Positions 12,636 through 29,508 of a stretch of 64,000 bases of DNA are shown in pieces. The position numbers and the translations under genes are program-made. Numbering within the stretch: the stretch's first letter is position 1; each line of letters starts with the position of its first letter. The notes under the pieces were generated by a model. It was not told the DNA's origin, ran no database searches, and saw only the letters and a list, made by a program, of their open reading frames with translations. The stretch is taken from positions 32,001 through 96,000 of the forward strand of contig JBCBZT010000020.1 of assembly GCA_039815185.1 (NCBI GenBank), in the 5' to 3' direction. The stretch comes from Cyanobacteria bacterium P01_A01_bin.123 (GTDB lineage Bacteria; Cyanobacteriota; Cyanobacteriia; Phormidesmidales; Phormidesmidaceae).

Positions 12636-12790
12636 AACCTCAGAAACCCATCTCAAATCTCGGTTAAGTGGCTTGATTTAAAGGCAAACAATACGGCCTA
12701 TAACAGAGTCTAACCTCAGAAACTCATCTCAAATCTTGGTTGAGTAGTTTGCTTTAAAGGTAAACGATACGGCCTATAACAGAGTCCAAC
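12636..12790. repeat. Imperfect 76-bp tandem duplication in the long leader of the DUF11 operon
   Basis: AACCTCAGAAAC(C/T)CATCTCAAATCT...ATACGGCCTATAACAGAGTC starts at 12636 and again at 12712. Confidence 0.9.
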
Positions 12791-13357: not shown

Positions 13358-15940
13358 ATGAAAAGAGCTAATCAACCCAAAAAAATTCAGGGGAAAGTCT
13401 ACCGTACAATTATTGCGGCAGCACTTGCCCTGGGCGGAACACTCCACATGGTCACCGCCGTCCTTGCCGATGGCACGGCAGCAGGCACCCAAATTACCAA
13501 CGAAGCAACCGCGACTTACGAAGACCCCAACGACCCTAACAACACACCCATCACGACCACATCAAACGAAGTGGTGGTTCAGGTCGCTGAAGTAGCCGGT
13601 ATTACCGTCCAACCTGCCGGAATTGAGTTTAATCCAACTGGCGGTGACGCAGACAACGACGGCTTGGTTGAACCCGATGATCAGCTTTACTACATCTATG
13701 AAGTCACCAACGTGGGTAACGACCCCACTGAGTTCTTCATCCCAGATACCGCTGTGGTGACAACCAATAATGGTAGCCAGGACGGCCAGATTGAAATCAG
13801 CTACGATGGCACAACCTGGGGCGATCCTCGCGATACAGGTTTTAACCCAGACGGTGATGGCATTACGGATGCTATTCCTCCAAACGGTAAGGTGCTCGTA
13901 CGGGTACCGATTCAGGTGGCTAGCAATGCTAATCCTGGCGATCCCGTTGAAGTCCGCTTGGGTAACACGCCTGGTGATGGCCAAAACCAAGATTATGTGC
14001 CCAATGGTGTACTCGATGTCTACACCTCAGACGCACCTTTCCCCACCACTGTGGGTGGTGTGGATGAAGTGGATGGTGATCCGGCTAATGGCACCCGCGA
14101 AGCCAGTGCTCGTCAGTCTATCCCGGTTGATTCGACCCTCGATACCCAACCCCTAGTCACCATCGAAAAGATTCTCAGCAACTATGAGGCAAATAACGCA
14201 GCTAGCCTGACTGACGATGAATTGACTTACGAATTGCGGTTCGAGGTTGAGGGGACAGACACTACAGGCAACACCCCTGCCTTTACCCCTGGGCCTTTGT
14301 ATCCCGTCGATGGTATCTCAGTTGATGGCGGCACTGGGTCCCATATTTTGGTATCCGACGCTCTACCCGATCACACCGTGTTGAGTGGGACACCTACTGC
14401 CCCGGCAGGTTGGACCGTAGTTTACAGTGGCACCGCCACTACCACCAATGCCCATGATGCAGATTGGTTTACCAGTTCCACTGCTCCTGGGCTGGGGGGA
14501 ACCATTACCCGGGTTGGTTTCATCAGCGATTCCTCAATTATCTCCCTAGCGCCCACCAGCGTGGTTGAAACCTTCCGGTTTACAGTAGAAACGACTAATG
14601 TACCGACTGGTTTGACCGAAGCAACCTTTGCTAATATCGCGCAAGTCTTTGGTTCTGCGGATCCCGGTGGCGACCCCAACGAACTGGTCAATGATGAATC
14701 GGGTGACAGCACCCCCAGCAACTACAATCCCACTGGCGGTACTGGCGGTACTGGCGGCTTTGACCCACCGAGCGATGGCTACATCCCTGATGACGACGAT
14801 GACGGGGTACCTGACGACATCGATCTGAACGACCCGACCGCAGGTGACGGCACTGACCCCAGCAACACCAACAGCGGTACTGGGACTGGCGGTGAAGCCA
14901 ACATCAAGACCATTGGCTTGCCTTCTAGCTTGGATCTAATCAATGGCCCTGAGAATGAGCCCGAGGCAATTGGCCCCACAGGGACGAATGATGACTTCAC
15001 CAACAAATCTGTCCCGGTTGATCCTGCCGATATCACCTTCGATGCCACCGATAGCCGCGATGAACTCGATCCTGATCCGGTCGATTTTGCCAACACGGTG
15101 CTCAACAACGGCCAAACCACGGGTGACATTACCTTGGTACCCACCCCTCCTGCGGATACCAATGATTTACCCGATGGCACTATCGTCACCATTACCGATC
15201 CCGATGGTGAGACGGCGATTTACGAGTACAACGGCACGACCTTTACCCGCACGGGCGGTACGGCTGGTGGAGATATTGTCATCCCAGATGTGGATCCCAA
15301 TGATGAAGTCACCTACGGTGTCCGGGTAGACTTGCCAGATGGCACCCCCCTCTCCACGGATACCGATGGCACCGGTAATCCAATTGGCGGCTTCCCCGTT
15401 CCGATTACAGCTACGTTGGAAGATGCCGGGGGTAATACAGCCAGCAACATCACGATTGACCAAGTTTACACGGGTTATCTGCAGCTCGCTAAAGAGTCTC
15501 GCATCCTGCAAGGCAGTGGCCCAGCGGTGCAGTCTGGTCAAGGTGACTTCAGCGCCGATCCTAAGAATCCAGCACCGGGCAACATCATTGAATATCGGGT
15601 GACCTACACCAACATCAGTGAAACAGCTTCCGGTAGCAACAACGTGGTGCTCAATGCTGAAAATGTGGTCATCAACGAGGACGGCACCGATGGCGGCAAT
15701 AATTGGGCGCTGGATAACGACAACAACAGTGTGATTGACACCAGCAATGTTCCAGGGTCTGCAACTGACTCTAACGGCGGTACCATCACCTACTACAGCG
15801 GTGCCCCGGCCAATACCCCAACTGGCGATACCTCCGGTTCAGATGCAAATACCGATGTCACTCGCTATGTCGATCAGGTTCCTGGCTTAGTCGGCCCTGG
15901 TGAATCAGGCTCCCTGATTTTCCGCCGCGTGCTGAACTAA
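13358..15940 (+). CDS. Secreted acidic DUF11/isopeptide-type Ig-repeat protein, candidate major fibre subunit (860 aa)
   Basis: Signal peptide ending AVLA; mature N-terminus DGTAAGTQITNEATATY; complete internal DUF11 domain (TIEK...VSDALP...FANIAQV); C-terminal DUF11 domain (LQLAKES...PGNIIEYRVTYTN...LIFRRVLN*); DxDxDG motifs. Confidence 0.85.
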   Translation: MKRANQPKKIQGKVYRTIIAAALALGGTLHMVTAVLADGTAAGTQITNEATATYEDPNDPNNTPITTTSNEVVVQVAEVAGITVQPAGIEFNPTGGDADNDGLVEPDDQLYYIYEVTNVGNDPTEFFIPDTAVVTTNNGSQDGQIEISYDGTTWGDPRDTGFNPDGDGITDAIPPNGKVLVRVPIQVASNANPGDPVEVRLGNTPGDGQNQDYVPNGVLDVYTSDAPFPTTVGGVDEVDGDPANGTREASARQSIPVDSTLDTQPLVTIEKILSNYEANNAASLTDDELTYELRFEVEGTDTTGNTPAFTPGPLYPVDGISVDGGTGSHILVSDALPDHTVLSGTPTAPAGWTVVYSGTATTTNAHDADWFTSSTAPGLGGTITRVGFISDSSIISLAPTSVVETFRFTVETTNVPTGLTEATFANIAQVFGSADPGGDPNELVNDESGDSTPSNYNPTGGTGGTGGFDPPSDGYIPDDDDDGVPDDIDLNDPTAGDGTDPSNTNSGTGTGGEANIKTIGLPSSLDLINGPENEPEAIGPTGTNDDFTNKSVPVDPADITFDATDSRDELDPDPVDFANTVLNNGQTTGDITLVPTPPADTNDLPDGTIVTITDPDGETAIYEYNGTTFTRTGGTAGGDIVIPDVDPNDEVTYGVRVDLPDGTPLSTDTDGTGNPIGGFPVPITATLEDAGGNTASNITIDQVYTGYLQLAKESRILQGSGPAVQSGQGDFSADPKNPAPGNIIEYRVTYTNISETASGSNNVVLNAENVVINEDGTDGGNNWALDNDNNSVIDTSNVPGSATDSNGGTITYYSGAPANTPTGDTSGSDANTDVTRYVDQVPGLVGPGESGSLIFRRVLN

Positions 15941-15957
15941 CCACCCCACCCCTCAAC

Positions 15958-15986
15958 GGTAGGCAAGTGTCTACGGCTTGCCTACC
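15958..15986 (+). terminator. Intergenic stem-loop after the first operon gene (no U-tract; RNA stabiliser or partial terminator)
   Basis: GGTAGGCAAG-9 nt-CTTGCCTACC, perfect 10-bp stem. Confidence 0.6.
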
Positions 15987-16035
15987 CCCATTCATTCATT
16001 GCAATTACCCCAAGATTAAACGGAGAACAACTACT

Positions 16036-16593
16036 ATGAAACGTTGGTTTATCGGTCTGGGTGCCCTGGTTCTAGTCGGCTCTGCCCCCTTTATTGGCAC
16101 TCCTGTCTTTGCCCAAATTCAAAAAATCACTGAGTCGATTGTCGAAACGATCCGTCGGCCCGAGGTCAAACTCACCCTAACTGCAGAAAAGCAGATTGTT
16201 GAAGTCAACACTGCTGGAGAACAAGCCACCACTTGGGAAGCGTTGGCAGGTCAAGCCCAGGTATTTCCCGGTGATGTCTTACGTTACACCATTGATGGTG
16301 CCAACTCTGGCGATGTTGAAGCTGAGAACTTGGTTATCAGCCAGGCAATTCCGGCTGAAATGACCTATGTTTTGGCTTCTGCAACCCCTGTAGAAGGGGC
16401 AGAACTGGTCTACAGCATCGATGGCGGCGAAACCTTTGTGGCTGAGCCCATGGTTGAAGTCACCCTGCCCGATGGCACGGTTGAACTCCAACCTGCACCT
16501 GCTGAAGCTTATACCCATGTTCGTTGGAGCTTTGGCGAGTCTTTGGCCTCTGCTAGCTCACTCAAAGTAGCCTACGACGTGCAGGTGAAATAA
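16036..16593 (+). CDS. Small secreted single-DUF11-domain protein (185 aa)
   Basis: GGAGA RBS, signal peptide MKRWFIG...PVFA, 'PGDVLRYTIDGANSG...NLVISQAIPAEMTYV', ends 'VAYDVQVK*'. Confidence 0.88.
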   Translation: MKRWFIGLGALVLVGSAPFIGTPVFAQIQKITESIVETIRRPEVKLTLTAEKQIVEVNTAGEQATTWEALAGQAQVFPGDVLRYTIDGANSGDVEAENLVISQAIPAEMTYVLASATPVEGAELVYSIDGGETFVAEPMVEVTLPDGTVELQPAPAEAYTHVRWSFGESLASASSLKVAYDVQVK

Positions 16594-16602
16594 GTCGGAT
16601 TG

Positions 16603-16664
16603 AAGCGCGCGATCGCAGCTATTGCTGATTCTGTCTAGCTCTCCGATAGGGCGGTCGTGCGCTT
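16603..16664 (+). terminator. Long imperfect intergenic stem-loop after the second operon gene
   Basis: AAGCGCGCGATCGC ... GCGGTCGTGCGCTT, pairing with G-U wobbles. Confidence 0.5.
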
Positions 16665-16860
16665 TCCTAACGCTTGCAACCTGCTTAATCAGACTTTTTA
16701 CACAACCTATCGCTATTGACATGGGGTCTCGCTACGAGCTGCTGAAAAAGCTCAAGCCGAAACCTTAGGGGGACTTTGCACGAATTTTTCGCGTTGCCAA
16801 CCAGTGGAACTGGTTTACCCCCATCAGGATTGCCTCGCTCGCGGATCTCAGGGAAACATC

Positions 16861-18375
16861 ATGACCAACCGCTCTCAACATAAACCAAACTGGCTCAAAC
16901 ACCGATGGGTTAAGTACCTGGCGACTGCGCTGCTGGCCTTTGCAATCGTTCAAAATCCGATCGCAACCCTGGCTCAGGTGCAGATACCACTGGTGAACCA
17001 GGCCACTTATGAATATTCTGACCCTGCTAGTGGCAATAACTTTCAAGGCACGTCTCGTGCGATTACCACTCAAACGTCACCGCTGGTTGATCCGCTGGGA
17101 CAAATTCTGGCGTGTAACGGCACTCAGCTTGCTAACTATGCAGGGTTTTCAGTCGCAATTTACGAAGCAGATGCCAGTGGTTTAGAACCTGCCGGTTTGC
17201 TTCCCTTAACCCGTACGGAATTTCCTGATAATCCAGGCAACAACATTCCTGGTGGTAAAGCACCCAATATTGAAAATAGTAATCCCTTCTTCTTAACCAA
17301 TGCGGATCAGGGACGCTACAACTTCTTGTTTGACCCCAATCAAGGTCAGACGGATCCGGGTCAAGTTTACATCTTGGCTGTTGACCCACCCTCAGGTTCA
17401 GAGTTCATCGAGCGCCGCATTCGCATTGAGATTCTGCAGAGTACGGGCGGTTCTAACGGCAGTATTGTGCGCTATCGGGCGACAGCCCTAGATGGTCAGC
17501 CGATCAGTGTGGCTGGGGGCAACCAAATCAGTGACAACGTGGTTGAGGTTCTGGACGCAGAAACTGGGCTGCTGAATCTCTTCTCCCTAGCACTCGGGAC
17601 GGTCATTTGCGAAAACCGACAGATTCAAATCACAAAGTCTGGCGATCGCGCTGCGGCTCAACCGGGTGACACCGCCGTGTATCGACTCGCTATTCGCAAC
17701 CTGGTGGATGTCGATCTCAACACCATCGTTGCGACCGATATACTGCCCTTTGGTTTCCGCTTCTTAGCAGATTCGGTACGGGCTCACATTAACGGCAGCC
17801 CCGTTGCCATTACCCCAGAGGTAAGTCCAGACGGCTTAACGGTGACCTTCAACGCCGAAGCCAGTATTCCCTCAGGTCAAACCCTAAACATTATTTATGC
17901 CGCCAATATTACCCCGGATGCAGTCCGCGGGTCAGCGCGTAACTCGGCAGTGGTGAATGGGATACGGGCAGACAATGGTTTATCGGTCAAAGACGGCCCG
18001 GTAAGTCATCTGATGCGTCTTGACCCCGGTATTCTCAGCGACTGCGGCACATTGATTGGCCGAGTCTTTGTTGACAAAAACTTTGATGGCGAACAGCAGC
18101 CCGGTGAACCCGGTGTGCCCAATGCCGTTGTGTTTTTGGATGACGGCAACCGCATCGTCACCGATGCAGAAGGCCTCTATTCTGTCTCCAACATGCTGCC
18201 GGGATACCGCACCGGTGCCCTCGATTTAAGCAGCCTACCGGGTTATACCCTCGCCCCCAACCTCTATTTCAGAGAACGCAATAGTCAGTCACGGCTTGTG
18301 CATCTAGCACCGGGTGGCATGGTCCGCATGAACTTTGCGGTCACCCCCACCTTCCAGGAGGAAAATCAGTCATGA
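16861..18375 (+). CDS. Secreted DUF11 + SdrD-B-like protein (504 aa), translationally coupled to the barrel gene
   Basis: Signal peptide; mature N-terminus QVQIPLVNQATYEY; complete DUF11 (IQITKSGD...ATDILP...RNSAVV); C-terminal 'IGRVFVDKNFDGEQQPGEPGVP'; ATGA overlap with the next gene. Confidence 0.87.
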   Translation: MTNRSQHKPNWLKHRWVKYLATALLAFAIVQNPIATLAQVQIPLVNQATYEYSDPASGNNFQGTSRAITTQTSPLVDPLGQILACNGTQLANYAGFSVAIYEADASGLEPAGLLPLTRTEFPDNPGNNIPGGKAPNIENSNPFFLTNADQGRYNFLFDPNQGQTDPGQVYILAVDPPSGSEFIERRIRIEILQSTGGSNGSIVRYRATALDGQPISVAGGNQISDNVVEVLDAETGLLNLFSLALGTVICENRQIQITKSGDRAAAQPGDTAVYRLAIRNLVDVDLNTIVATDILPFGFRFLADSVRAHINGSPVAITPEVSPDGLTVTFNAEASIPSGQTLNIIYAANITPDAVRGSARNSAVVNGIRADNGLSVKDGPVSHLMRLDPGILSDCGTLIGRVFVDKNFDGEQQPGEPGVPNAVVFLDDGNRIVTDAEGLYSVSNMLPGYRTGALDLSSLPGYTLAPNLYFRERNSQSRLVHLAPGGMVRMNFAVTPTFQEENQS

Positions 18376-21300
18376 AATCGTCACAGAGAAACACTATCAT
18401 CAGGGCCAGCCTATTGGGGGCGATCGCAGGCACCGTTGGCATCACAGCAAATCCTGCAACTGCATTAGCAGCAACCCAATCTATCAGCCCTAAAGCCCAA
18501 GCAGCCAACATTGCAGAATTGTCGCAAGCCGAGGCAACCTCATCTGAACTTTCCTCACGCGATCGCGAGATTGAAGTTGCTCAAATAGAGACCACAGCCG
18601 CTAGTGCACCTTCCTCAGACTCAACCAGTAGTCTTGAGGTTATTCCAGAGACATTTGCTACACAAGCAGCAGATACGCCAATCGCAGCAGACTTATTACC
18701 GTCTCCAGGAGCAGAACTCACCACTGAGATCGGGACTGAGGTTGCTGATATTGCAGACAATGAGCCGACCGCGATCGCCGATGGTGCCAGCCAGCTAGAC
18801 GGTCTTCAAGAGGCTGAAATGGAGGCGGTAGAAGCACTCACCTCGGAAGAATCAGCAGAGGACACTACCACCGTATCTGATGCAGAAGAATTAGCGGAGA
18901 CTGAGATTCAACCCCTAGATCATCAGGCATTAGCCAATCAGGTTCGGATTCTAAATCCTGTCGGCAACGCCGTTCTAGATGTGCCAGCCACCACTGTGAT
19001 TCTGGAATATCCGACTGGCGCTGATGTTGAATTGCAGGTCAATGGCACACGGGTTGACGCATCTTTGCTCGGTCGGACAGAGGTTGACGAAACCCGTAGC
19101 GTCACCGTCGAAACTTGGTATGGGGTACCGCTACAGGCAGGCACGAACAACATTGATGCGGCCATTCGAGGGACTAACACTCCCCTAACGACGATAGAGA
19201 TTCAGGTGCGTGGGGTACCGACTCAGCTTACGGTTGAAACTCGGGAAGCCCAAGTCGCTGCCGATGGTCGCTCAACAGCCACCATTCAAGGTCAACTGCT
19301 AGATGAGAACGGTAACCTTTCCAACTGGAATACAACCGTTACGTTGACGGCCACCGACGGAGAATTTGTGGGGGCAGACCTGTACCCTGATCAAGCTGGG
19401 TTTCAAGTTGAAGCTCGTAATGGTCGCTATACCACCGAACTGCGATCGCCGTTGGAAGCCCAACGGGTGCAGCTTAGGGCAACCGCAAATGGGCTAGAAG
19501 CATTTAATCAAATTCAGTTTGAAACCCAACAGCGTCCTAGCTTGGTGACTGGCGTCATCGACCTCCACTTTGGGACACGGGGCACTGACTATTACAGCAG
19601 CTTCCGAGACTTCTTACCCCCCGATGGCAACAACGGCTACGAGTTCGATGTAGACGCCGCTGTTTTTGCCATCGGGAACTTAGGAGACTGGCTGTTCACG
19701 GGGGCTTACAACAGCGATCGCTCACTGAATGAAGACTGTACCGGCAGTATTGAACTGTTTCGTGACACGCAGCGATGCGAACACAACTATCCGGTCTACG
19801 GCGATGATTCTAGCCGTGACGTTTTAGCACCTTCCATTGACAGCCTTTACCTGAGATTTGAGCGCACTTCGCCAGTGGCAGGGGCTGGAATTGACTACTT
19901 TTCGTGGGGGGATTTCAACACCGAAGAGTTTGCCACCTCATCCCAACTATTTAGCGCCACAACCCGTCAACTCCATGGCTTTAAATTTAACTACAACATT
20001 GGTGATTTAGCCGTAACCGGCTTCTATGGCGACAACGTAGACGGGTTTCAACGAGACACGATTGCGCCGGATGGCACTAGCGGCTTCTATTTCCTCTCTC
20101 GCCGTTTGCTCGTGCCCGGGAGTGAAAATATCTTCCTAGAACTAGAAGAATTGGATCGCCCTGGTACGGTCGTCGAACGTCAGGCGCTCTATCGCGGCAC
20201 CGACTACGAAATTGACTATGACCGGGGTACAATTCTGTTCCGCGATGCGGTTTTACGCACGGCTGTAGACGAGACCGGGACTGTCCTAGTGCGCCGGATT
20301 GTGGCGACCTACCAGTTTGAAGGAGACGGCACTAACACCAATATTTATGCAGGCCGCCTGCAGTACAACCTAGATCGCACTTTGAACCACGAGAGCTGGC
20401 TGGGCGCGACCTATCTCAGAGAGAACCAAGGCAACCGGAGCTTTGAACTGTATGGCGCAGACGCTCAAATTTCCTTGGGTGAAGATGCTCAGCTGATTGC
20501 AGAATTTGCCCATTCAGATAGTGATTTTGATTTGTCTGGCCCAATCAGCGGTTCAGCCTATCGGCTTGAACTTGAGGGCACGGTAACCAACTGGTTGGCT
20601 GGGCGAGCTTATTTTCGCCATACTGACGCAGGCTTTACCAACACTGCCACAACTAGCTTTGTACCGGGGCAAACCCGCTATGGCATTGAGGCAGTTGCTG
20701 CTGTCTCTGAGACAACCAACATCCGCGCCCGGTATGACCACGAAGAGAATGTCGGTACCGCACCGCGCCCGCTCTTGACCCTAAGTGAGCTGCTTGAGAC
20801 TGGCGTTTCTGCCACCCCTGGTAGCCGAGTTGATAACTCGCTAGACACCTTTTCACTGGGTATTGTTCAGCAACTTGGTGATACCAATCTAGAGTTCGAC
20901 TGGATTCACCGAGAACGCACCGATCGGATTTCTCCCAATGCTTTATCGTCGAGTTCTGATCAGCTGCGATCGCGCTTAACCACTAACTTGAGCGAAGACA
21001 TTACCCTCTTTGCCCAAAATGAGCTGAATCTGTCTTCTAATGGAGACTCAATCTATCCCAACCGCACCATCTTTGGCCTAGATTGGCAACTGATGCCCGG
21101 TATTACGCTCGGGGTCAATCAGATTTTCCTCGAAAACAACGGCATCAATGATCGCGGCGCAGTTACCACCATCGATTTGGATGCTGCCTATGCCCTAGGT
21201 GAAGACACCACCATTCGGGGTCGCTTCTCAGTTATCGATGGCACTCAAGTGGGGGGAACGGTTGGGCTAGAACAGGGCTTTACGTTGGCCCCCGGCCTGC

Positions 21301-22247: not shown

Positions 22248-22278
22248 GCGAATTCGCTGGAGATAAGGAGCAAGACTG

Positions 22279-24426
22279 ATGATGCATCCCCTAAGCACTC
22301 GACGCTATCAGCTATTGATGGCTTGCGGTCTAGCCGCAACAACACTCGTCTCTCAAGTCGCAGTCTGGGCGCAGGCCACCCCGGCTCACGTGACTACACC
22401 ACCACCTGATCTCCACATCGTCGTCAATAGTAGTCAAGACGGCCCGATCCAGGCTGACGAGATGTTGACCTTGCGAGAAGCCATTGAACTGACTAATGGC
22501 ACCTTGCCATTGGCTTCTCTAAGTGATGTTGAACACGCTCAAGTCACTGTAGTTGAACCTGCTGAATCAGCATCGCGCATTGAGTTTAATCTCCCGGCGA
22601 ATCAAACAAAGATTCAATTGGTAACGCCGCTACCCGCAATCGCAAGCCCTGATCTAACCCTAGATGGCACTACCCAACCCGGTTATGACCCAGCCCTATC
22701 GGCAACGGCTGAAATCGAAGTGCCAATCCCAGTTGTCGAAATTACGCCAGCTCCAGAGGCTGAAGTGTTTCGGGGGTTGAGTATTGTTGCCAGTGGCGTA
22801 ACAGTACGAGGCTTGAGCCTTTATGGTTTTACCGCAGAACACCGAGCTACGGCGATTACACCACCCGCAGATATCTTTATTGCCCATCGTTTGCCACCCC
22901 CAGATACCAGCCAACAATATCCACCCGCCCAAGGGTTTTCCTATTACGACGAAAACATTCCGCCTGAGGATGTACTGATTGAACACAATTGGTTGGGGAT
23001 GCCACCGACAGAAGCCATGCCTGAGACACCTTCAGCGTTTGGGGTTTCTGTATTCAACAGCCAAGGCACAACGGTTCGTCGGAATCGCATTGCTCACCAT
23101 GACGGCAGTGCGATCATTACCGGGGCTCGGGCTGAAAATCTGAAGGTTGAAGAAAACATCTTAGTCGCCAATGGCCTAGCGGGCATGCCCGATGGCATCC
23201 GCATTGAGGGCAGCGTTGATAACAGCGTCATCAGTGGCAATCTGGTCTGCGGTAACGACGGTGCAGGGATCTTTCTGTTTAAGCCCGAAGGGGCGATTGA
23301 AATTCGCGACAACACCATCAAGTTTAATGGTCAGCGCCTGCGTCGCGCTGCGATTTACCTAATGGGCAATGGCCATCGAGTTGTCGACAACGAAATTAAT
23401 AATCAAAAAGGGCCGGGGGTGGTTGTCACCGCGTTTGGCATTGGCAGCCGCAACCCCAGCCATCGCAACTTGATTCAAAACAATGTGTTTGCCAGCCTGG
23501 AAGGCTTGAGTATTGACCTCAATACCCGCCGTCACAATGGGGTGCAAGATTTCCAGCGGGGCGATGGCCCGAATCCAGTGCGCAATTCTGACAATCGGCG
23601 GTTGGATACTGGCAATTTAGCGATTAATGCACCTCAGTTCCTGAGTCCTGAGTTCTTTGTCATGAATGGCAAAGTGATGATCGAAGGCATGGCTGATCCA
23701 GGGTCTGAGGTTGAGCTTTACCTCAGCCATGCGGCTGATTCAGCCCATGGGCCTTTGAGTCAGCCTTTGGCGACTGTTGCGGTGGATCAAGCGGGGCACT
23801 TCACATACGAATCCGCTGAACTGCCATCAGGAACCATAGTCAGCGCGATCGCATCTGATCCTCGCTATGGCACTTCAGAGCCAGCGTTAAATACCGTGGT
23901 GCGATCGCTGTCTGCTACAGATGACAACTCAGCTGCATCTAGCAATCTGGATTTTGAAGTCCCCCAGTGTACAACCCGGCCTGAGCCCCCCGAACCTGTC
24001 GTCGTGGCCCCACCCCCGCCAGAACCAATTCAACTGCAAGTGCCTCGAAACGTTCACTTTGGCCTGGATCGCGACAACATCAGTGCTGAAAGCGCGGCTG
24101 TTTTAGATCAAATTGCAGCAGCAATGCAAATCCATCCCACCTTGGTGGTGGATCTGCACGGCCACACCGACTCTCGGGCCAGTGATGCCTACAACCAAGA
24201 ATTAGCCTTGCGTCGGGCGCGCAATGCTAGAGCGTATCTGATTCAGCAAGGCATTGATCCGGCCCGGACGACAATTCGCTCGTTGGGTGAAACTCAGCTT
24301 TTAACTTCAGAGCGCGATCGCGTCGAGTATGCCCGCAACCGCCGAGTCGAATTTGTGTTTCGCGATGTCCGAGGGCTTAACATCACCTTCGTTGATCAAG
24401 ACACCGACTTACAGATCGAACCTTGA
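22279..24426 (+). CDS. Secreted right-handed beta-helix protein with C-terminal OmpA-like peptidoglycan-binding domain
   Basis: CSLREA-like 'IVVNSSQD...LTLREAI', parallel beta-helix repeats, Pro-rich linker, OmpA motifs 'VHFGLDR', 'GHTDSRASDAYNQELALRRA', 'NRRVEF'. Confidence 0.9.
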   Translation: MMHPLSTRRYQLLMACGLAATTLVSQVAVWAQATPAHVTTPPPDLHIVVNSSQDGPIQADEMLTLREAIELTNGTLPLASLSDVEHAQVTVVEPAESASRIEFNLPANQTKIQLVTPLPAIASPDLTLDGTTQPGYDPALSATAEIEVPIPVVEITPAPEAEVFRGLSIVASGVTVRGLSLYGFTAEHRATAITPPADIFIAHRLPPPDTSQQYPPAQGFSYYDENIPPEDVLIEHNWLGMPPTEAMPETPSAFGVSVFNSQGTTVRRNRIAHHDGSAIITGARAENLKVEENILVANGLAGMPDGIRIEGSVDNSVISGNLVCGNDGAGIFLFKPEGAIEIRDNTIKFNGQRLRRAAIYLMGNGHRVVDNEINNQKGPGVVVTAFGIGSRNPSHRNLIQNNVFASLEGLSIDLNTRRHNGVQDFQRGDGPNPVRNSDNRRLDTGNLAINAPQFLSPEFFVMNGKVMIEGMADPGSEVELYLSHAADSAHGPLSQPLATVAVDQAGHFTYESAELPSGTIVSAIASDPRYGTSEPALNTVVRSLSATDDNSAASSNLDFEVPQCTTRPEPPEPVVVAPPPPEPIQLQVPRNVHFGLDRDNISAESAAVLDQIAAAMQIHPTLVVDLHGHTDSRASDAYNQELALRRARNARAYLIQQGIDPARTTIRSLGETQLLTSERDRVEYARNRRVEFVFRDVRGLNITFVDQDTDLQIEP

Positions 24427-24621
24427 TCATGCCTACGAAAAATTACTGACGTATTACCAGTGTTGCAATTAACCCAGCTTGAAGCTCCCAGAATTTACTG
24501 AGTCTTTGATCCCAACATAACGGGATTGCTAAAGAGGGAGCTTCCCGGTGCTGAGCCTTTATGCCTTACCTGCTCTGCTAATCCATTCTCCAAATCATTG
24601 CCTGCCAATAAGGGTCTTACT

Positions 24622-27600
24622 ATGAGTCTTCTACCCAGATATCTGTCACTGTTTGCGCGCGCTGCTAAAAATCGCCCCAGTGCGTTACTAGCCGCTGCAA
24701 CGATATTAACCACGACGCTGGGCTTTGTGACTCCCGCCAGGGCTGACTCCACGCTTAACGTCATCAAAACAGCGCTGGATCTGAATGGGGCAGATATTAC
24801 CGATGTTGAGTCAGGTCAGGATTTTCTGTTTGAAATTAAGTGGTCTTGTAGTTTAGACGATATCAACGTTGATATATGTGAAGACGTCCAAATCTCAGAC
24901 GTGATTCCCACCGAGCTGGAATATGTCGGTTTAGAAGAGGGAGAAGGGGCCAGAGCCAACTACAACAGCGGCACAAGAACATTCACCTACGATCTCGGCA
25001 CGATTCAGGGAGACTCGGCAGCGGGTTCAATTGCTATTAGAGTTCGCTTCCCAGAAGGAGTTACTGCCGACAACGTAACCGCCAACAACACGGCTGTTAT
25101 TGAATCCGCCACTGCAAATCCGCCAGGACAAAAGTCCAGCAGTGACGATATCACCAGTGATGTCAGCAACCCAGCAGGTAAGTGGAATGTCACTAAAAAC
25201 AAGTTGTTACCTTCCGGTGATCCCATCTTGGATGGAGATGTTACCTATGAAGTCAGCCTTGCGCCAACCCAACGTACGGGTAACCTGAATCTAGAAAACG
25301 TCGTCATGACGGACACCCCAGAGGTTGGGGCAGAAGTTGTCTCTGTGAGCAATGGCGGCGTCTTTAATGATGGCGACGGCGATGGCATCGTGGATCCGGG
25401 AGACACCATTACCTGGAACGTCGGCGATCGCACTGTAGGGCAAGAAACCTACCGAGCTCAGGTCGTATTAAGTTATCCAGCGGCCACCTTCAACTCGAGT
25501 GGTGCAGCCCCCGATACACTACCAGATGTGACAAACTCGGTCACCGGAGCCGGTACCTTTGAAGTGACTAGCGATGCCTTTAGCGACGATGGGGAAGTTA
25601 GCCACGGGTTCGTCGATCCAGATCCTGGCTTAGCCAACTTTCAAAAACGCAACCAAGGCTTTGTCTACGGCAGCCGTCCTGATATTGGCACCGAATTCTA
25701 CTACGACTATAGAATTCAAAACACGGGTAACGTTGCCTTCGATACCCTCACCGTCTTTGATGACAATTTGCCGCCAGAGGTAGATGCTCTACGCTTCCGC
25801 ACGGGTAGATACAGTAACGACGCCGGAGCGACGTTTACACTGCAATACAGTACCGACAACGTCAACTTCCAAAATGTGCCTGGGGTGGTTGATTTGGTTG
25901 TTGCCGACACTGAGCAGCAAAACTTTACCTTGCCAACAGGGACACGTGGCATTCGCATTATTTACGAAAATGCGCCTGTGGGCTTTAACGCCAATACTCG
26001 CCCCAGACTCTATGTCGAAGTGCGCACAACCATGGAAGATACAGGGGCGACGATTCAAGACGGAGAAGACATTGATAACACCGCCACCTTAACAGGTGTC
26101 TTTAATGGTAATGACTACACCGATGACGATGATGTGGAAACCTTTGTCGATCGCCCCCGTGCCGTAGGCATCATTAGCAAAGAGGATTTAACCAATAGCG
26201 GCCCTTACGCGCCGTCTGAGCTAGTTGAGTTTCGGTTGACTGCGGGCAACCGTCGCAATGCCCGCAGAACTCTGGAAAATCCGGTCGTGGTCGATATTCT
26301 GCCCGATGGCCTAGCCTATGTGGCAAATTCCTATGTGTTTGATGCTGGCGATAGTGGCCTGTCAGCACCGTCTAATTTCGAAGTCATTGAAAACTACAAC
26401 GGTAGTGGCCAAACCCTCTTACGCTGGACTTGGGAAGGTCAAGCTGCGGATTATGACGATGGGTCCGACGGTAACGCTTTTAATGACGACAAGACCTGGA
26501 CGATTACCTATAAAGCCGGGATTGAAGAAGGTGATATCCAGGGCAGCATCACCAATACGGTTTACCTCAGTACCTACGACACAAGTACCGACCCGGCAGA
26601 TTTTGTTTGCCATAGCAGGGGTGACAACGATATTGGTGATAGCGACGACATTGATGGCGACGGCAAGACCGGGGACGACAATGTTTACAACAGCAACTCA
26701 TCCACAACTAACGATAATCCCCTCTGCCGTGCCACCGCAGATGTAACCGTTACCACGCTGCCCTTCCTCGAAGCACGTAAACGGGTACAGGGTGGATTAA
26801 ACAACAGCTACGAGATCAGTGGTCAGAGCTATCCCGGTGGTGCAGTCGATTATCAAATCACCGTTACCAACACCGGTACTACGCCCATTGAAGACTTGGT
26901 CGTCGTCGATATCTTCCCCAATATTGACGACACCAGTGTGCTCAATACCAACGTGCCGAGGAATTCTGAGTGGCGACCTTATTTGGTTGGCCCCATCGAA
27001 GTCCAAGTCCCCACGGCTCAGGTTTACTATAGTGTGTCGTCAAATCCATGCCGTCTGAATCCATTAGACGGTACTGATCAGCTTTGGCCACCCGGTTGCG
27101 TTGATGACTGGACAACCACCTTCCCCAATGACCCTACTACGGTCACAGCGGTCAAGATTGACTACGGCAGCTTCAGGCTCAATCCATTGACCTCGCTGAC
27201 AAACGATTGGCCCATGCGGGTGCCGGTCGTTGCCCCTACCAATGAATCAGCCTTTAATTCCTTTGCCCTCACCGGACGACGCATCGATCGCACCTCTCCC
27301 CTACTACCCCAAGAACCGCCTCGGGTAGAGGTCGACTTACAAACCGACGATCCACCGGTTTTGGGTGATTTTGTCTGGAACGATGCTAATAACAACGGCG
27401 TTCAAGACGATGGTGAGAATGGTATCAATGGGGTAGTAGTCGAGCTTTACCGCCCCGGTGCTGATGGCATTCCGGGGACGCCAGACGACGAGTTCGTCGA
27501 CTTCACCATGACCGGGCCAAACCACTTTGGTTTCCCTGGCTTTTATGAGTTTGCCTATCTCGATCCAGGTGACTACTTTCTGAAATTCATTCCGCCCACG

Positions 27601-29508
27601 GGCTCAGGCTATTTCTTTACCAGTAGCAGTGGTACCGATCGCGACGATGGGACAGGTTCTGATGCTAATCAGACAACCGGCTTAACCGATGTGATTACTA
27701 TCGCCAGCGGCGACGACGAACGCGACATTGATGCGGGTCTTACCACCACCCCACCAACAGGCCAAGCCACCCTGGGTGACTATGTCTGGTTAGATGCCAA
27801 TGGTGATGGCATTCAAGATGCCAATGAAACGGGTGTTAACGGGGTCAGCGTCATGCTCTATCAGAGTGACGGCACCTTTGTGGGCACCACCCAAACCAGT
27901 AATGACACCAATGGTAATCCGGGGTATTACATCTTCCAAAACCTGCCACCCGGTGATTACTACGTCGAGTTCAATCCACCCGCAGGGTACAATGCTTCTC
28001 CGCAAAGTCAGGGGAGCGACACAGCTCAAGACTCCGATGCTGATCCCACCGATGTCGATGGGACAACGCCAGGAACCCAAGCCCGAACAAATCCATTTAC
28101 CCTCAGCGCAGGTCAAAACGAAACTGATATCGATTTCGGGATCGTGCCCCAACCGCGTATCGGTGACTATGTCTGGATTGACCTCAACCGTGACGGCATC
28201 CAGGATGGAACAGAGGTTGGGCTCAATGGCGTCACAGTCAATCTCTATGAAGACGGTAATCTCACCCCCGTAGACACGATCGTGACTGCCGACGATATTC
28301 AAGGCAATCCTGGTTATTATGCCTTTGCCACTGGAGGACTTAGCGGTGACTATTCGATTGAGTTTGTGCTGCCTAGCGGATATGAATTTTCGCCACAAAA
28401 CTCTGGCAGCGATGACACCCTCGACTCAGATGTCAATACCGCAACGGGGCGCATTGAGATTACTGGCGTCACCAACACAACCACTGATTTGAGTCTAGAT
28501 GCTGGGGTCAACCAACCGGCACCAGGGCCTGGCTTCGTAGGCGACTTTGTCTGGTTAGATCTCGATGAAGATGGCATTCAAGATCCAACCGAAACTGGCT
28601 TTAACGATGTCACGGTCAGACTGCGTAGGGCTAGCGATGACAGCCTTTATGCTGAGACAGTCACAGCAGATTCTCTGGGGCGACCTGGCTACTATCTGTT
28701 TAGCAACGTACCGGATGATGACTACTATGTTGAATTCGTACTGCCAGAAGACTACTTAGCCTCACCTGCAAATGCTGGCAGTGATGACTCGGAAGATTCC
28801 GATGTGGATAGTGCGGATGCAGATCCGAATGTGTCAGGGGTAGAGACTGATGCGGATCTGAGTACGAGTGCGATTGAGCTAAGAACGCCATCATTCAACG
28901 TGACTAGCACCTCCGACAATCGCACTATTGACATGGGGATTTACCGTGACCCTAATGCCCCTGAACCTCCAAGCGTGGTGCTACTCAAGCGAATCACAGC
29001 TATTAATAACGTTCCTATTGCCTTCGACGGGCCTCAAACCCCAGAAGAAGATGAGGTTGATGATCTATTTCCATCTAACTTTTTAGAAGGGACAGTGGAT
29101 GGCGGTGAAACGAGACCGGGCGATGAAATTGAGTACACGATCTACTTTATTTCTAACGGCGATCGCGCAGCTGAAAATGTGGCTTTCTGCGACCTAGTGC
29201 CAGAATACACAACGATCAGTTCAACTGCTTTCAATGCCAACCCAGCCACCCAAGATACGGGGGGAATCCCAGGGGCCGATCGCGGCATTGTGCTCGGTCT
29301 TGGTAGTGATGAACTCTCAATGACCAATGTGGCCGATGGCGATCGCGGGGTTTATGTACAACCGGGTGATCCGACTGGACTCGACTGTGGCGGCCCGAAT
29401 AGCAATGGTGCCGTAGTTGTGTTCATTGGCGATATTCCCAACGCTAACGGCAACCCAAACCCCAACACCTCCTACGGATTCGTCAGATTCCGAGCGCGGG
29501 TGCAGTAG
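24622..29508 (+). CDS. Large secreted adhesin-like protein: five DUF11 domains, four SdrD B-like repeats, C-terminal truncated DUF11 (1628 aa)
   Basis: Signal peptide ending PARA; repeated K...(T/V)D.(L)P...N(T/S) domains; four (L/I/V)GD(F/Y)VWxDxNx(D/N)G(I/V)QD repeats from 27361; ends 'YGFVRFRARVQ*'. Confidence 0.88.
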   Translation: MSLLPRYLSLFARAAKNRPSALLAAATILTTTLGFVTPARADSTLNVIKTALDLNGADITDVESGQDFLFEIKWSCSLDDINVDICEDVQISDVIPTELEYVGLEEGEGARANYNSGTRTFTYDLGTIQGDSAAGSIAIRVRFPEGVTADNVTANNTAVIESATANPPGQKSSSDDITSDVSNPAGKWNVTKNKLLPSGDPILDGDVTYEVSLAPTQRTGNLNLENVVMTDTPEVGAEVVSVSNGGVFNDGDGDGIVDPGDTITWNVGDRTVGQETYRAQVVLSYPAATFNSSGAAPDTLPDVTNSVTGAGTFEVTSDAFSDDGEVSHGFVDPDPGLANFQKRNQGFVYGSRPDIGTEFYYDYRIQNTGNVAFDTLTVFDDNLPPEVDALRFRTGRYSNDAGATFTLQYSTDNVNFQNVPGVVDLVVADTEQQNFTLPTGTRGIRIIYENAPVGFNANTRPRLYVEVRTTMEDTGATIQDGEDIDNTATLTGVFNGNDYTDDDDVETFVDRPRAVGIISKEDLTNSGPYAPSELVEFRLTAGNRRNARRTLENPVVVDILPDGLAYVANSYVFDAGDSGLSAPSNFEVIENYNGSGQTLLRWTWEGQAADYDDGSDGNAFNDDKTWTITYKAGIEEGDIQGSITNTVYLSTYDTSTDPADFVCHSRGDNDIGDSDDIDGDGKTGDDNVYNSNSSTTNDNPLCRATADVTVTTLPFLEARKRVQGGLNNSYEISGQSYPGGAVDYQITVTNTGTTPIEDLVVVDIFPNIDDTSVLNTNVPRNSEWRPYLVGPIEVQVPTAQVYYSVSSNPCRLNPLDGTDQLWPPGCVDDWTTTFPNDPTTVTAVKIDYGSFRLNPLTSLTNDWPMRVPVVAPTNESAFNSFALTGRRIDRTSPLLPQEPPRVEVDLQTDDPPVLGDFVWNDANNNGVQDDGENGINGVVVELYRPGADGIPGTPDDEFVDFTMTGPNHFGFPGFYEFAYLDPGDYFLKFIPPTGSGYFFTSSSGTDRDDGTGSDANQTTGLTDVITIASGDDERDIDAGLTTTPPTGQATLGDYVWLDANGDGIQDANETGVNGVSVMLYQSDGTFVGTTQTSNDTNGNPGYYIFQNLPPGDYYVEFNPPAGYNASPQSQGSDTAQDSDADPTDVDGTTPGTQARTNPFTLSAGQNETDIDFGIVPQPRIGDYVWIDLNRDGIQDGTEVGLNGVTVNLYEDGNLTPVDTIVTADDIQGNPGYYAFATGGLSGDYSIEFVLPSGYEFSPQNSGSDDTLDSDVNTATGRIEITGVTNTTTDLSLDAGVNQPAPGPGFVGDFVWLDLDEDGIQDPTETGFNDVTVRLRRASDDSLYAETVTADSLGRPGYYLFSNVPDDDYYVEFVLPEDYLASPANAGSDDSEDSDVDSADADPNVSGVETDADLSTSAIELRTPSFNVTSTSDNRTIDMGIYRDPNAPEPPSVVLLKRITAINNVPIAFDGPQTPEEDEVDDLFPSNFLEGTVDGGETRPGDEIEYTIYFISNGDRAAENVAFCDLVPEYTTISSTAFNANPATQDTGGIPGADRGIVLGLGSDELSMTNVADGDRGVYVQPGDPTGLDCGGPNSNGAVVVFIGDIPNANGNPNPNTSYGFVRFRARVQ

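What the first reader, a model, noticed from the sequence alone, without database searches (positions are those of the whole stretch)
13358..29508. Candidate undescribed pilus/fibre system built from split DUF11 isopeptide domains (a natural Tag/Catcher polymer)
SEEN: six co-directional genes, all with signal peptides. Every internal DUF11-type domain (one in the 860-aa protein, one in the 504-aa protein, five in the 1628-aa protein) has a first-strand Lys, a D-x-x-P-type acid and a late N-(T/S/I) strand. The C-terminal domains of three proteins (860, 185, 1628 aa) stop right after the F/Y-x-x-x-V strand and lack the Asn strand. The mature N-termini of two proteins (860 aa: GTQITNEATATY...SNEVVVQV; 504 aa: PLVNQATYEY...SRAITTQ) consist of exactly that missing Asn strand pair. 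KNOWN: Ig-like pilin domains of the RrgB/RrgA type form autocatalytic Lys-Asn bonds catalysed by Asp/Glu; splitting them gives covalent Tag/Catcher pairs; chaperone-usher pili polymerise by donor strands. INFERENCE: acceptor-only adhesin (tip), then donor+acceptor subunit repeated n times (shaft), then donor-only protein (base) on an outer-membrane barrel with an OmpA anchor, giving a sortase-independent, covalently linked fibre in a diderm. I know of no characterised system with this layout.
Basis: partly seen in the sequence, partly recalled or inferred. Interest (0 to 1): 0.93.

Follow-up and report, generated by a model that had tools for sequence, protein, structure and literature searches.

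The report
Snap-together covalent pilus of cyanobacteria
Six neighbouring cyanobacterial genes encode surface-fibre parts in which a self-crosslinking adhesin domain is cut in two and shared between proteins, so the parts probably plug together head to tail and lock covalently on a giant outer-membrane barrel, with one small, chemically disabled part that may act as their chaperone.

Summary
A (860 aa), B (185) and F (1628) end in a DUF11/CLIPPER domain lacking its last hairpin; A and C (504) start with that hairpin. In 120 divergent A homologues the donor Asn (119), acceptor Lys (120) and acid (120) are kept. Ten natural proteins, probably of one origin, carry A's acceptor fused directly to A's donor. 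A model puts C's hairpin, and nothing else of C, into A's acceptor (0.79, best control 0.00; likeness to a solved whole domain may help). Two corrections. B is chemically disabled: Lys plus acid occur together in 1 of 183 and 2 of 56 homologues. It tracks A in 35 of 35 genomes, so it is probably a chaperone or cap, not a fibre subunit. The OmpA protein E is optional. A shorter locus type (donor, barrel, adhesins; no A or B) also exists. D models as a roughly 38-strand barrel with an inserted domain; its best fold match is the usher FimD. Covalent bond, fibre length and order are inferred; no fibre has been seen. I found no description in the library searched, but this scan noted the system at least eight times on other DNA.

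The parts
13358..15940 (+). A, 860 aa, putative shaft subunit: signal peptide, donor hairpin, Ig domain, complete DUF7925 isopeptide domain, Ig domain, acceptor half-domain
13469..13591 (+). A donor hairpin (residues 38-78) with Asn48
   Evidence: N48 kept in 69 of 69 loci and 119 of 120 divergent homologues; fused directly behind the acceptor in 10 natural proteins
14153..14920 (+). A internal complete CnaA-type domain (DUF7925; K271, D334, N426)
   Evidence: Pfam E 8e-54; model matches BcpA (Z 10.4, rmsd 2.8, 128 aligned) and CLIPPER 9IFR (Z 10.0, rmsd 2.7, 121 of 123 aligned)
15467..15940 (+). A C-terminal acceptor half-domain (704-860): K712, E774, W783
   Evidence: K 120 of 120, E or D 120 of 120, W or F 120 of 120; binds C's hairpin in the model
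16036..16593 (+). B, 185 aa: signal peptide plus a single acceptor half-domain with K52 but Gln103 in place of the acid; no donor; putative non-covalent chaperone or cap
   Evidence: same 35 genomes as A in a 301-genome sample
16861..18375 (+). C, 504 aa, donor-only root: donor hairpin, beta domain, complete DUF11 domain (K259, D293, N361), SdrD_B-like domain; overlaps the start of D by 4 nt
   Evidence: fused to a D homologue in L111 and L130
16984..17088 (+). C donor hairpin (residues 42-76) with Asn46
   Evidence: N46 in 52 of 52; the only part of C 39-253 in the modelled interface
18372..22247 (+). D, 1291 aa: low-complexity N-terminus, two Ig domains (about 185-384), outer-membrane barrel of about 38 strands (about 391-1263) with an inserted beta domain (about 558-649); putative assembly and secretion platform
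   Evidence: model pLDDT 80, pTM 0.69; strands counted from the secondary-structure listing; best fold match FimD usher, Z 16.1, rmsd 7.2, 308 aligned
22279..24426 (+). E, 715 aa: beta-helix plus C-terminal OmpA-like peptidoglycan-binding domain; accessory, absent from most related long loci
   Evidence: present in 6 of 79 loci and in 2 of 49 with D and F visible, and in 11 of 17 short loci
24622..29508 (+). F, 1628 aa, putative tip adhesin: five complete DUF11-type domains, four SdrD_B domains, C-terminal acceptor half-domain
   Evidence: 40 of 43 homologues match only in the terminal acceptor; their N-terminal parts carry vWA, GEVED, lamin-tail, SdrD_B or DUF11 domains
28966..29508 (+). F acceptor half-domain (1449-1628): K1456, D1524
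   Evidence: Lys 43 of 43 (40 in the alignment, 3 more by eye); Asp 43 of 43

Best explanation
The operon builds a surface fibre from split CLIPPER (DUF11-type) domains. All parts cross the inner membrane by Sec (inferred from signal peptides). An acceptor half-domain (Lys and acid) at a protein's C-terminus takes up the two-strand Asn hairpin at another protein's mature N-terminus and restores a whole Ig domain (well supported). The restored Lys/acid/Asn triad forms an intermolecular isopeptide bond without an enzyme (inferred from conservation and from the solved CLIPPER domain). Polarity fixes the order: acceptor-only adhesin F at the tip, A repeated n times, donor-only C as the terminator held by the barrel D, through which the string is threaded (inferred; the logic is that of FimH, FimA, FimI/PapH and the usher). 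B is a catcher that cannot react. It most likely covers A's donor hairpin in the periplasm so that A does not polymerise or cyclise irreversibly before it reaches D: a chaperone of opposite sign to PapD (inferred). E, or OmpA/SLH domains fused to D, tie the platform to peptidoglycan where present. Short loci (n = 0) display adhesins directly on C and D and need no B. My odds by step: hairpin complementation in trans 0.9; covalent lock 0.75; A polymer with n well above 1, 0.6; B as periplasmic chaperone of A, 0.5.
For: Conservation: A N48 119 of 120, K712 120 of 120, acid 120 of 120 among representatives under 50% identical to each other; C N46 52 of 52; F K and D 43 of 43; short-locus adhesins K and D 18 of 18. 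Ten natural proteins have A's acceptor followed at once by A's donor, with no linker. The donor Asn is kept in 10, the full triad in 6, and in 2 the loss of Lys comes with Glu to Gln. Complex of A 704-860 with C 39-253: score 0.79, best of 3 controls 0.00 (mark reached by 116 of 157 solved and 2 of 215 mismatched pairs; runs agree in at least 81% of contacts; partner pLDDT at least 73). The interface on C is residues 42-76 only; K712, E774 and N46 are in it, and W783 touches N46, like the aromatic cap described in PMC12617251. Gene order A-B-C-D-F is kept across cyanobacteria, and a B-A-C-D form occurs in another class of the phylum (L111-L113). C and D are fused in L111 and L130. B is inactivated by different routes (Lys kept with Gln, Gly or Ala at the acid position; Asp or Asn kept with Lys replaced by Val, Ile, Glu or Arg): both residues in 1 of 183 and 2 of 56. 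In 301 genomes, split A and full-length B fall in the same 35; 8 genomes with only a short or fused C have neither; the 2 with A's acceptor inside a giant protein have neither B nor C. D's best fold match is FimD. No sortase, usher or PapD family match in the genome.
Against: No fibre, ladder or cross-link has been observed. The complex tool gave no Lys-Asn distance, and halves of a split domain can pass by likeness to the solved whole domain (9IFR); a close cousin of the true partner can pass too, so the pass does not show that C pairs with A rather than F. The ten fusions form one clade (SH-aLRT 99, with one split form inside; quick tree), so they count as one event, and 4 of 10 have lost the Lys, so the junction can persist without the bond. 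Donors do not resemble the internal Asn hairpins by profile. The link between A and B is partly just operon linkage among related genomes, and the short loci may be a single lineage. A's acceptor has its own conserved Asn (N781, 115 of 120), which I cannot exclude as a partner in cis. The FimD match is weak in geometry (rmsd 7.2), and other large barrels score Z 12-14. The monomer model of A is of low global confidence (pTM 0.44) and cannot exclude ring closure.
Confidence: 0.6

Rival explanations
1. Covalent adhesin display with little or no polymer. C on the barrel captures the adhesin F directly or through one or a few copies of A as an extender. There is no long pilus.
For: 17 short loci and a second locus in this genome (contig C92, L080) have donor C', barrel D' and one to three acceptor adhesins but no A or B. 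A is large (five domains) for a major pilin. RNA data could not rank the genes.
Against: A's donor and A's acceptor are compatible, as the natural fusions show, so nothing in the sequence stops chain growth. A dedicated inert catcher that goes with A suggests that polymerisation has to be controlled. Some loci carry two A genes (L006, L116).
Confidence: 0.2
2. Donor-hairpin fibre that is held non-covalently. The Lys, acid and Asn are kept for packing or react too slowly to matter.
For: 4 of 10 cis fusions have lost the Lys. A uses Glu, whereas the CnaA-like examples seen in Table 1 of PMC12617251 list Asp. In BsaA the N35A mutant still forms oligomers that survive SDS without heating (PMC11580942). 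No distance was obtained from the model.
Against: All three residues and the aromatic cap are close to invariant in split A, F and C over wide divergence, while B has lost the Lys or the acid repeatedly. That contrast is what selection for and against reactivity would give.
Confidence: 0.12
3. B is a structural, removable cap on the finished structure (on the free donor of A or C when no adhesin has been added), not a periplasmic chaperone.
For: B is an acceptor-only protein with a signal peptide like F. No complex with B was modelled here.
Against: Short loci have a free C' donor but no B, so C donors do not need a cap. B tracks the only subunit that can polymerise with itself.
Confidence: 0.25
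4. A completes itself in cis: its N-terminal hairpin closes onto its own C-terminal acceptor to give a stabilised ring, and the operon exports separate proteins.
For: The monomer model places the hairpin as ordered strands (pLDDT 74-82) and has long low-confidence linkers that could allow closure.
Against: This does not explain acceptor-only F and B or donor-only C. Homologues of 567-613 aa with only two domains between donor and acceptor keep both ends. In the fusions the chain runs on from the donor into the next domain as a string.
Confidence: 0.05

Closest known systems
CLIPPER / DUF11 (PF01345) and DUF7925 (PF25546) intramolecular isopeptide domains; PDB 9IFR (PMC12617251: abstract, passages, sections 2.4 and 3 read)
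   Same: Same fold and Lys/Asp/Asn chemistry. The internal domains of A, C and F are complete examples. The paper's DUF7925 example Q8YS00 has K264/D326/N415, a spacing like A's K271/D334/N426.
   Different: The paper treats only bonds within one chain; the words 'donor', 'operon' and 'cyanobact' do not occur in its main text. Here the domain is split between proteins.
BsaA fibres of Clostridium perfringens, TasA family, 'donor-strand exchange and lock' (PMC11580942, preprint; abstract and passages read)
   Same: N-terminal donor Asn, with Lys and Glu in the receiving subunit; autocatalytic intermolecular isopeptide; no sortase needed.
   Different: TasA/camelysin family, SipW peptidase, Gram-positive host, no outer-membrane platform, homopolymer. 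Here: CLIPPER fold, two-strand hairpin, distinct tip, shaft, root and inert catcher, and a giant barrel in a diderm.
Chaperone-usher pili (FimH/FimA/FimI/FimC/FimD; Pap) (own knowledge; passages in PMC9715654 and PMC11821415)
   Same: Acceptor-only tip, donor-plus-acceptor shaft, terminator, small periplasmic accessory protein, outer-membrane barrel with an inserted domain. FimD is D's best structural match.
   Different: No Usher or PapD_N match in the genome. The barrel has about 38 strands, against 24 for ushers (recalled). The donor is a hairpin carrying a reactive Asn. The proposed chaperone accepts the donor instead of lending a strand. The joint is probably covalent.
Archaeal thread filament Saci_0406 (PMC9715654; passages read)
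   Same: Donor-strand complementation plus an intermolecular isopeptide; a putative cap protein is encoded next to it.
   Different: The bond joins Asn57 to the N-terminal amine of subunit n+2, not a Lys/acid/Asn triad; archaeal; no outer membrane.
Sortase-assembled pili (RrgA/RrgB, BcpA, SpaA) and engineered split pairs such as Jo-In (PMC5333627, search listing and start of abstract only) and SpyTag/SpyCatcher (recalled)
   Same: CnaA-type isopeptide domains (BcpA, PitA and SpaD are top fold matches of A's internal domain); the split-domain covalent principle.
   Different: Those pili are linked by sortase through LPxTG; there is no sortase here. The split pairs are man-made, whereas this split is natural and gene-encoded.
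Cyanobacterial tubular (CT) pilus of Microcystis (PMC12397347; passages read)
   Same: Cyanobacterial pilus gene cluster with an outer-membrane protein and an adhesin.
   Different: In the passages read, the CT pilin has its own fold and the authors contrast it with donor-strand Ig pilins; no split DUF11 domains are described.

Membership tests
CLIPPER/DUF11-type isopeptide domains (internal domains of A, C, F) | CnaA-like Ig fold matching PF01345/PF25546 or 9IFR | tested here: met
   Pfam DUF7925 in A, DUF11 in B, C and F; 9IFR Z 10.0 with 121 of 123 aligned; C profile hits 9IFR at E 0.004
CLIPPER/DUF11-type isopeptide domains (internal domains of A, C, F) | Lys, Asp and Asn in one chain | tested here: met
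   seven internal triads
CLIPPER/DUF11-type isopeptide domains (terminal domains of A, B, F) | all three residues and all strands in one chain | tested here: not met
   the chains stop after the F/Y-x-x-x-V strand; B also lacks the acid
CLIPPER/DUF11-type isopeptide domains | the bond actually forms | not testable with these tools
   needs mass spectrometry or a structure
Chaperone-usher pili | usher of family PF00577 | tested here: not met
   no match in D or in the genome; the control rings in E. coli
Chaperone-usher pili | PapD-like chaperone (PF00345) | tested here: not met
   no match in the genome; controls ring; B is a DUF11 half-domain
Chaperone-usher pili | outer-membrane barrel with an inserted plug, usher-like in fold | tested here: inconclusive
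   FimD ranks first (Z 16.1, rmsd 7.2, 308 aligned), but other barrels score Z 12-14 and D is much larger
Chaperone-usher pili | polymerisation by an N-terminal donor completing the neighbour's Ig fold | tested here: met
   in silico only: natural fusions and complex model; the donor is a two-strand hairpin
Sortase-assembled pili | a sortase | tested here: not met
   PF04203: no match in a genome 99.99% complete; controls ring in three Gram-positives
Sortase-assembled pili | C-terminal LPxTG and membrane anchor on the subunits | tested here: not met
   the C-termini of A, B, C and F end in beta strands without a hydrophobic tail (by eye)
BsaA/TasA exchange-and-lock fibres | TasA/camelysin family subunit with a SipW peptidase gene | tested here: not met
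   no TasA, peptidase M73 or signal-peptidase hit for any of the six proteins in Pfam or NCBIfam at E up to 0.1
BsaA/TasA exchange-and-lock fibres | donor Asn, with Lys and acid in the receiving subunit | tested here: met
   conserved and brought into one modelled interface; no distance measured
Type V pili | lipoprotein precursor matured by a protease (recalled) | tested here: not met
   no Cys at the predicted cleavage sites of A, B, C or F (by eye); no type V pilin family hit

The most novel reading that the evidence does not exclude
A class of pilus of its own in diderm bacteria. Natural Tag/Catcher halves of a CLIPPER domain are joined tip first at a barrel of about 38 strands that works as an usher, every joint seals itself by an isopeptide bond, and a chemically dead catcher (B) serves as an inverted chaperone that hides the donor hairpin of the shaft subunit until exchange at the barrel. 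The same platform without A and B displays interchangeable adhesins.
Probability: 0.4. Interest if true: 0.93.

Novelty: categorically new. Interest (0 to 1): 0.82.

Why it matters
It would add a class of pilus to those known in diderm bacteria: covalent, enzyme-free and with its own secretion barrel. The principles have precedents (donor strands, BsaA's lock); the machinery does not match any family tested. It is widespread in cyanobacteria with large genomes (long form in 35 of 301 sampled genomes, 22 of 36 in one family), including laboratory strains such as Nostoc punctiforme (B homologue P0187), so it can be tested now. It could bear on mat, biofilm and symbiotic adhesion (inference). It gives a function to a large family of outer-membrane barrels that is annotated as hypothetical or 'TonB-dependent receptor'. 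It also offers many natural Tag/Catcher pairs, and a natural non-reactive catcher, for protein engineering.

Tried and rejected
Profile comparison of the donors with the Asn hairpins of complete domains: no signal above shuffles. Foldseek with the whole A model gave only generic strings of Ig domains; the model of A (pTM 0.44) cannot say whether the hairpin docks in cis, and neither acceptor nor donor came up as a separate match. No solved relative of B by sequence, and none of D's barrel (only the Ig domains hit). Promoter and terminator scans gave fewer sites than shuffles. Expression: contigs from RNA runs of hot-spring and mat metatranscriptomes (4 runs, 3 studies) cover parts of the Fischerella operon L014, but contigs cannot rank genes and DNA carry-over is not excluded, so this was not used. 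Linking the operon to locus tags of Nostoc PCC 7120 failed: a paper mentions All3289 as a 1289-aa protein with a C-terminal outer-membrane anchor (PMC9705863, one passage) and another lists all3292 in a table (PMC10406281, one passage), but I could not tie either to these genes by sequence. Rejected as the same system after reading passages: the Litorilinea grappling hook (one protein with 49 DUF11 domains, 10.1101/2025.08.19.671072), haloarchaeal tat-fimbriae (its 'DUF11' hits are DUF1102, PMC11821415), the CT pilus (PMC12397347) and a signal-peptide screen (PMC13297417). The search was badly set (one of two terms sufficed) and says nothing. The careful tree did not finish; the quick tree is quoted. 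The B search listed mostly Nostocales and added little breadth.
Full report
1. Observation. The six genes lie on the + strand at the stated coordinates; I call them A (860 aa), B (185), C (504), D (1291), E (715) and F (1628). All N-termini read as Sec signal peptides by eye; no predictor was available. Pfam finds DUF7925 in A; DUF11 in B, C and F; SdrD_B in C and F; Ig domains in D; and a beta-helix with OmpA in E. Seven internal domains carry a Lys, an Asp and a late Asn: A K271/D334/N426, C K259/D293/N361 and five in F. The last domains of A, B and F stop after the F/Y-x-x-x-V strand. B aligns to positions 11-99 of a 139-position profile of C's complete domain and ends there (probability 98.1). 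A's and F's acceptors align over their first strands only (87.5 and 95.3). A and C begin with an Asn hairpin. A profile of 28 donors scored the three genomic donors, which were in its training set, at 22-38 bits and no other of 9485 ORFs above 7.6. Against the reading: that profile does not recognise the Asn hairpins of the complete internal domains better than shuffles.

2. Conservation. A scan of the genome collection gave 152 confirmed relatives of A, of which 79 loci were kept, mostly Nostocales. By tblastn, B is present in 76, C in 76 and D in 74 of 79; the misses are at contig ends, except one locus that shows only a B-like tail beside an unresolved stretch. After leaving out the locus identical to the window and all partial ORFs, the counts were: A N48 69 of 69, K712 69 of 69, acid at 774 69 of 69 (67 E, 2 D); C N46 52 of 52; F D1524 43 of 43 and K1456 43 of 43 (three resolved by eye). 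A profile search of 1.84 billion representatives found 1048 proteins at E up to 0.001 and listed 150. I aligned 120 of them, leaving out fragments, fusions, some partly matching forms and the window's own protein: N48 119 of 120, K712 120 of 120, E or D at 774 120 of 120, W or F at 783 120 of 120. F homologues share only the terminal acceptor in 40 of 43 cases. In the 11 F-type proteins scanned, the rest carries vWA, GEVED, lamin-tail, SdrD_B or DUF11 domains, or nothing known. That is the pattern of an interchangeable adhesin with a fixed coupling.

3. Natural fusions. Among 163 stored proteins, 126 have the donor at the N-terminus and the acceptor at the C-terminus, 10 have A's acceptor followed immediately by A's donor inside large adhesin-like proteins, and 27 are fragments, partial matches or other genes. 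Several of the 10 come from long contigs of named isolates (Geminocystis sp. NIES-3709, Kovacikia minuta, Synechocystis sp. LKSZ1, Runella defluvii) and carry RTX, Calx-beta, cadherin or type IX sorting domains. The junction has no linker, which is the geometry of the n to n+1 joint in a head-to-tail polymer. The donor Asn is kept in 10 of 10 and the full triad in 6; 2 of the 4 that lost the Lys also changed Glu to Gln. In a quick tree of 55 rows (the 10 fusions and the first 45 of 79 other full acceptors) the fusions form one clade with one split form inside (SH-aLRT 99), so they count as one event.

4. Complex model. I folded A 704-860 with C 39-253, so that C's hairpin could have stayed on its own neighbouring domain. 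Score 0.79, best of three controls 0.00; the mark was reached by 116 of 157 solved complexes and 2 of 215 mismatched pairs (only roughly applicable, as my own alignments were used). The runs agree in at least 81% of contacts; partner pLDDT is at least 73. The confident interface on C is residues 42, 44-56, 61 and 63-76, the hairpin alone. On A it includes K712, E774 and W783, and W783 with N46 is among the least-error pairs. Aromatic caps are typical of CnaA-like bonds (PMC12617251, discussion read). The pass may come from likeness to the solved whole domain 9IFR, a cousin of the true partner can pass, and no Lys-Asn distance was reported.

5. B is a dead catcher. B keeps K52 but has Gln at the acid position (68 of 70 loci). 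Among 183 distinct B sequences, 1 has both Lys and acid. Among 56 more distant B-like proteins (three overlap with the first set; gene context not checked for the rest), 2 have both. The others keep Lys with Gly, Gln or Ala, keep Asp or Asn with Lys replaced by Val, Ile, Glu, Arg or Cys, or have lost both. Different routes to the same loss suggest selection for binding without bonding. In a sample of 301 genomes of the phylum, full-length B (E below 1e-20) occurs in 35 and split A in the same 35. Five further genomes have only weak partial matches to the B profile. Eight genomes have only a short or fused C, and neither A nor full B. Two have A's acceptor inside a frame of over 2400 codons (G219 in permuted order; G023 not cut out) and no B or C. 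Related genomes are not independent and A and B are neighbours, so this is a pattern, not a statistical test. A is the only part with both halves, hence the only one that could polymerise or cyclise irreversibly on its own. A non-reactive catcher that hides its donor until assembly is the simplest role for B. A cap on the finished structure is the alternative.

6. A short form exists. This genome has a second locus on contig C92 (L080): a 307-aa C' that starts with a donor hairpin, D', E' and two beta-helix adhesins ending in acceptors, without A or B. I fetched 17 of the 18 other short-C matches (the one left out was a 149-aa fragment). None had A's acceptor or a full B; 15 held one to three acceptor adhesins (18 proteins, Lys and Asp in all 18); 15 C' had an N-terminal donor, one was fused to D and one had a broken 5' end. 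So donor root, barrel and adhesin are the core, and A with B is a module that lengthens it.

7. Barrel and anchor. Residues 185-1275 of D model at pLDDT 80 and pTM 0.69 as two Ig domains and a barrel. From the secondary-structure listing I count 7 strands, an inserted beta domain of about 90 residues, and 31 more strands; no coordinates were available. Foldseek ranks the Deinococcus S-layer barrel first, with poor geometry. On realignment FimD leads (Z 16.1, rmsd 7.2, 308 aligned; other barrels Z 12-14). An inserted plug is an usher trait (recalled), but no Usher, PapD_N or Sortase family rings in the genome, while the controls do. C and D are one ORF in L111 and L130, which ties the donor-only protein to the barrel. 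E is accessory: present in 2 of 49 loci with D and F visible and in 11 of 17 short loci. L114 and L121 have an OmpA-like domain on D, and L111 has SLH domains in the fusion.

8. Mechanism. Shown in silico: split domains, complementary termini, conserved chemistry, compatibility of donor and acceptor, inert B, modular loci. Inferred: Sec export; binding of B to A's hairpin; tip-first assembly at D with F first, A added n times and C last; spontaneous Lys-Asn bonds. F has no donor and C no acceptor, so they can only be the two ends. Which end faces outward follows from C's tie to D and from F's variability. Overall confidence 0.6. Rivals: display with little or no polymer (0.2), non-covalent joints (0.12), ring closure (0.05), and, for B alone, a structural cap (0.25).

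9. Known systems. CLIPPER is described as an intramolecular domain; 'donor', 'operon' and 'cyanobact' do not occur in that paper's main text (abstract, passages and two sections read; supplements not read, and they may list such proteins). BsaA is the chemical precedent, with mutagenesis support, but it belongs to the TasA family of Gram-positives (passages). Archaeal threads use another bond (passages). Chaperone-usher pili are the architectural analogue, but their defining usher and chaperone families are absent. Nine literature searches (uninformative) turned up no description of this operon in their listings or in the passages read. The library holds only open-licence PMC papers and bioRxiv, so a description elsewhere is possible. 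This scan recorded the same kind of system at least eight times in other genomes, including Deinococcus, Roseobacter-group and Latescibacterota ones by those notes' own words. These are unchecked notes and I count them as no support. A word search for a chaperone lacking the acid returned nothing.

10. Verdict. A real, conserved system and most likely an undescribed class of covalent pilus or adhesin-display apparatus. The additions here are the natural fusions, the inert catcher B tied to A, the short form and the optional E. Interest 0.82; I rate it categorically new as a pilus class, though it is built from known principles and has no experimental support yet.

Noticed in passing
L080 (G000:C92:200000-216000): A second, short locus in the same genome: donor C' (307 aa), barrel D', OmpA beta-helix E' and two beta-helix adhesins (886 and 880 aa) ending in acceptor half-domains; no A or B.
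   Followed up: yes
P0007, P0014, P0015, P0049, P0074, P0159-P0163: Circularly permuted captures of the A module (acceptor then donor) inside giant adhesin-like proteins with RTX or type IX sorting domains, including a Bacteroidota protein, which suggests transfer between phyla.
   Followed up: partly
window 12636-12787: Two tandem copies of a 76-nt repeat (88% identical) in the 1.3-kb non-coding stretch upstream of A; function not examined.
   Followed up: no
window 31820-63901, - strand: A long, lower-GC polysaccharide gene cluster (WecG/TagA, Wza-like export, sulfotransferase, glycosyltransferases, ABC transporter, O-antigen ligase-like) starts about 2 kb downstream of F; a link to the fibre was not tested.
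   Followed up: no
L111:12371-19903; L130:4657-8562; L114:9787-15213; L121:6249-11237: Fusions of C with D (L111, with SLH domains; L130) and of D with an OmpA-like domain (L114, L121).
   Followed up: partly
L006, L116, L010: Loci with two A genes (A-B-A-C-D) or a second B upstream of A, which suggests mixed shafts.
   Followed up: no
G000:C92:246998-250009: A separate protein with at least seven tandem DUF11 domains runs off the contig end, about 33 kb from the short locus.
   Followed up: no
G249:C1:1265609-1268650; G279:C86:3482-4156: Extra genes that match only the donor and first Ig domain of A (profile positions about 6-248), near a long locus in G249; possible further donor-bearing subunits.
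   Followed up: no
L137:16296-17033: A short-type C' whose 5' part, with the donor, is interrupted by a stop codon; possibly a decaying locus.
   Followed up: partly
window F acceptor, residues 1523-1524 and 1589: All cyanobacterial F acceptors seen have Cys directly before the catalytic Asp and most have a second Cys later; a disulfide beside the reactive site is possible.
   Followed up: no
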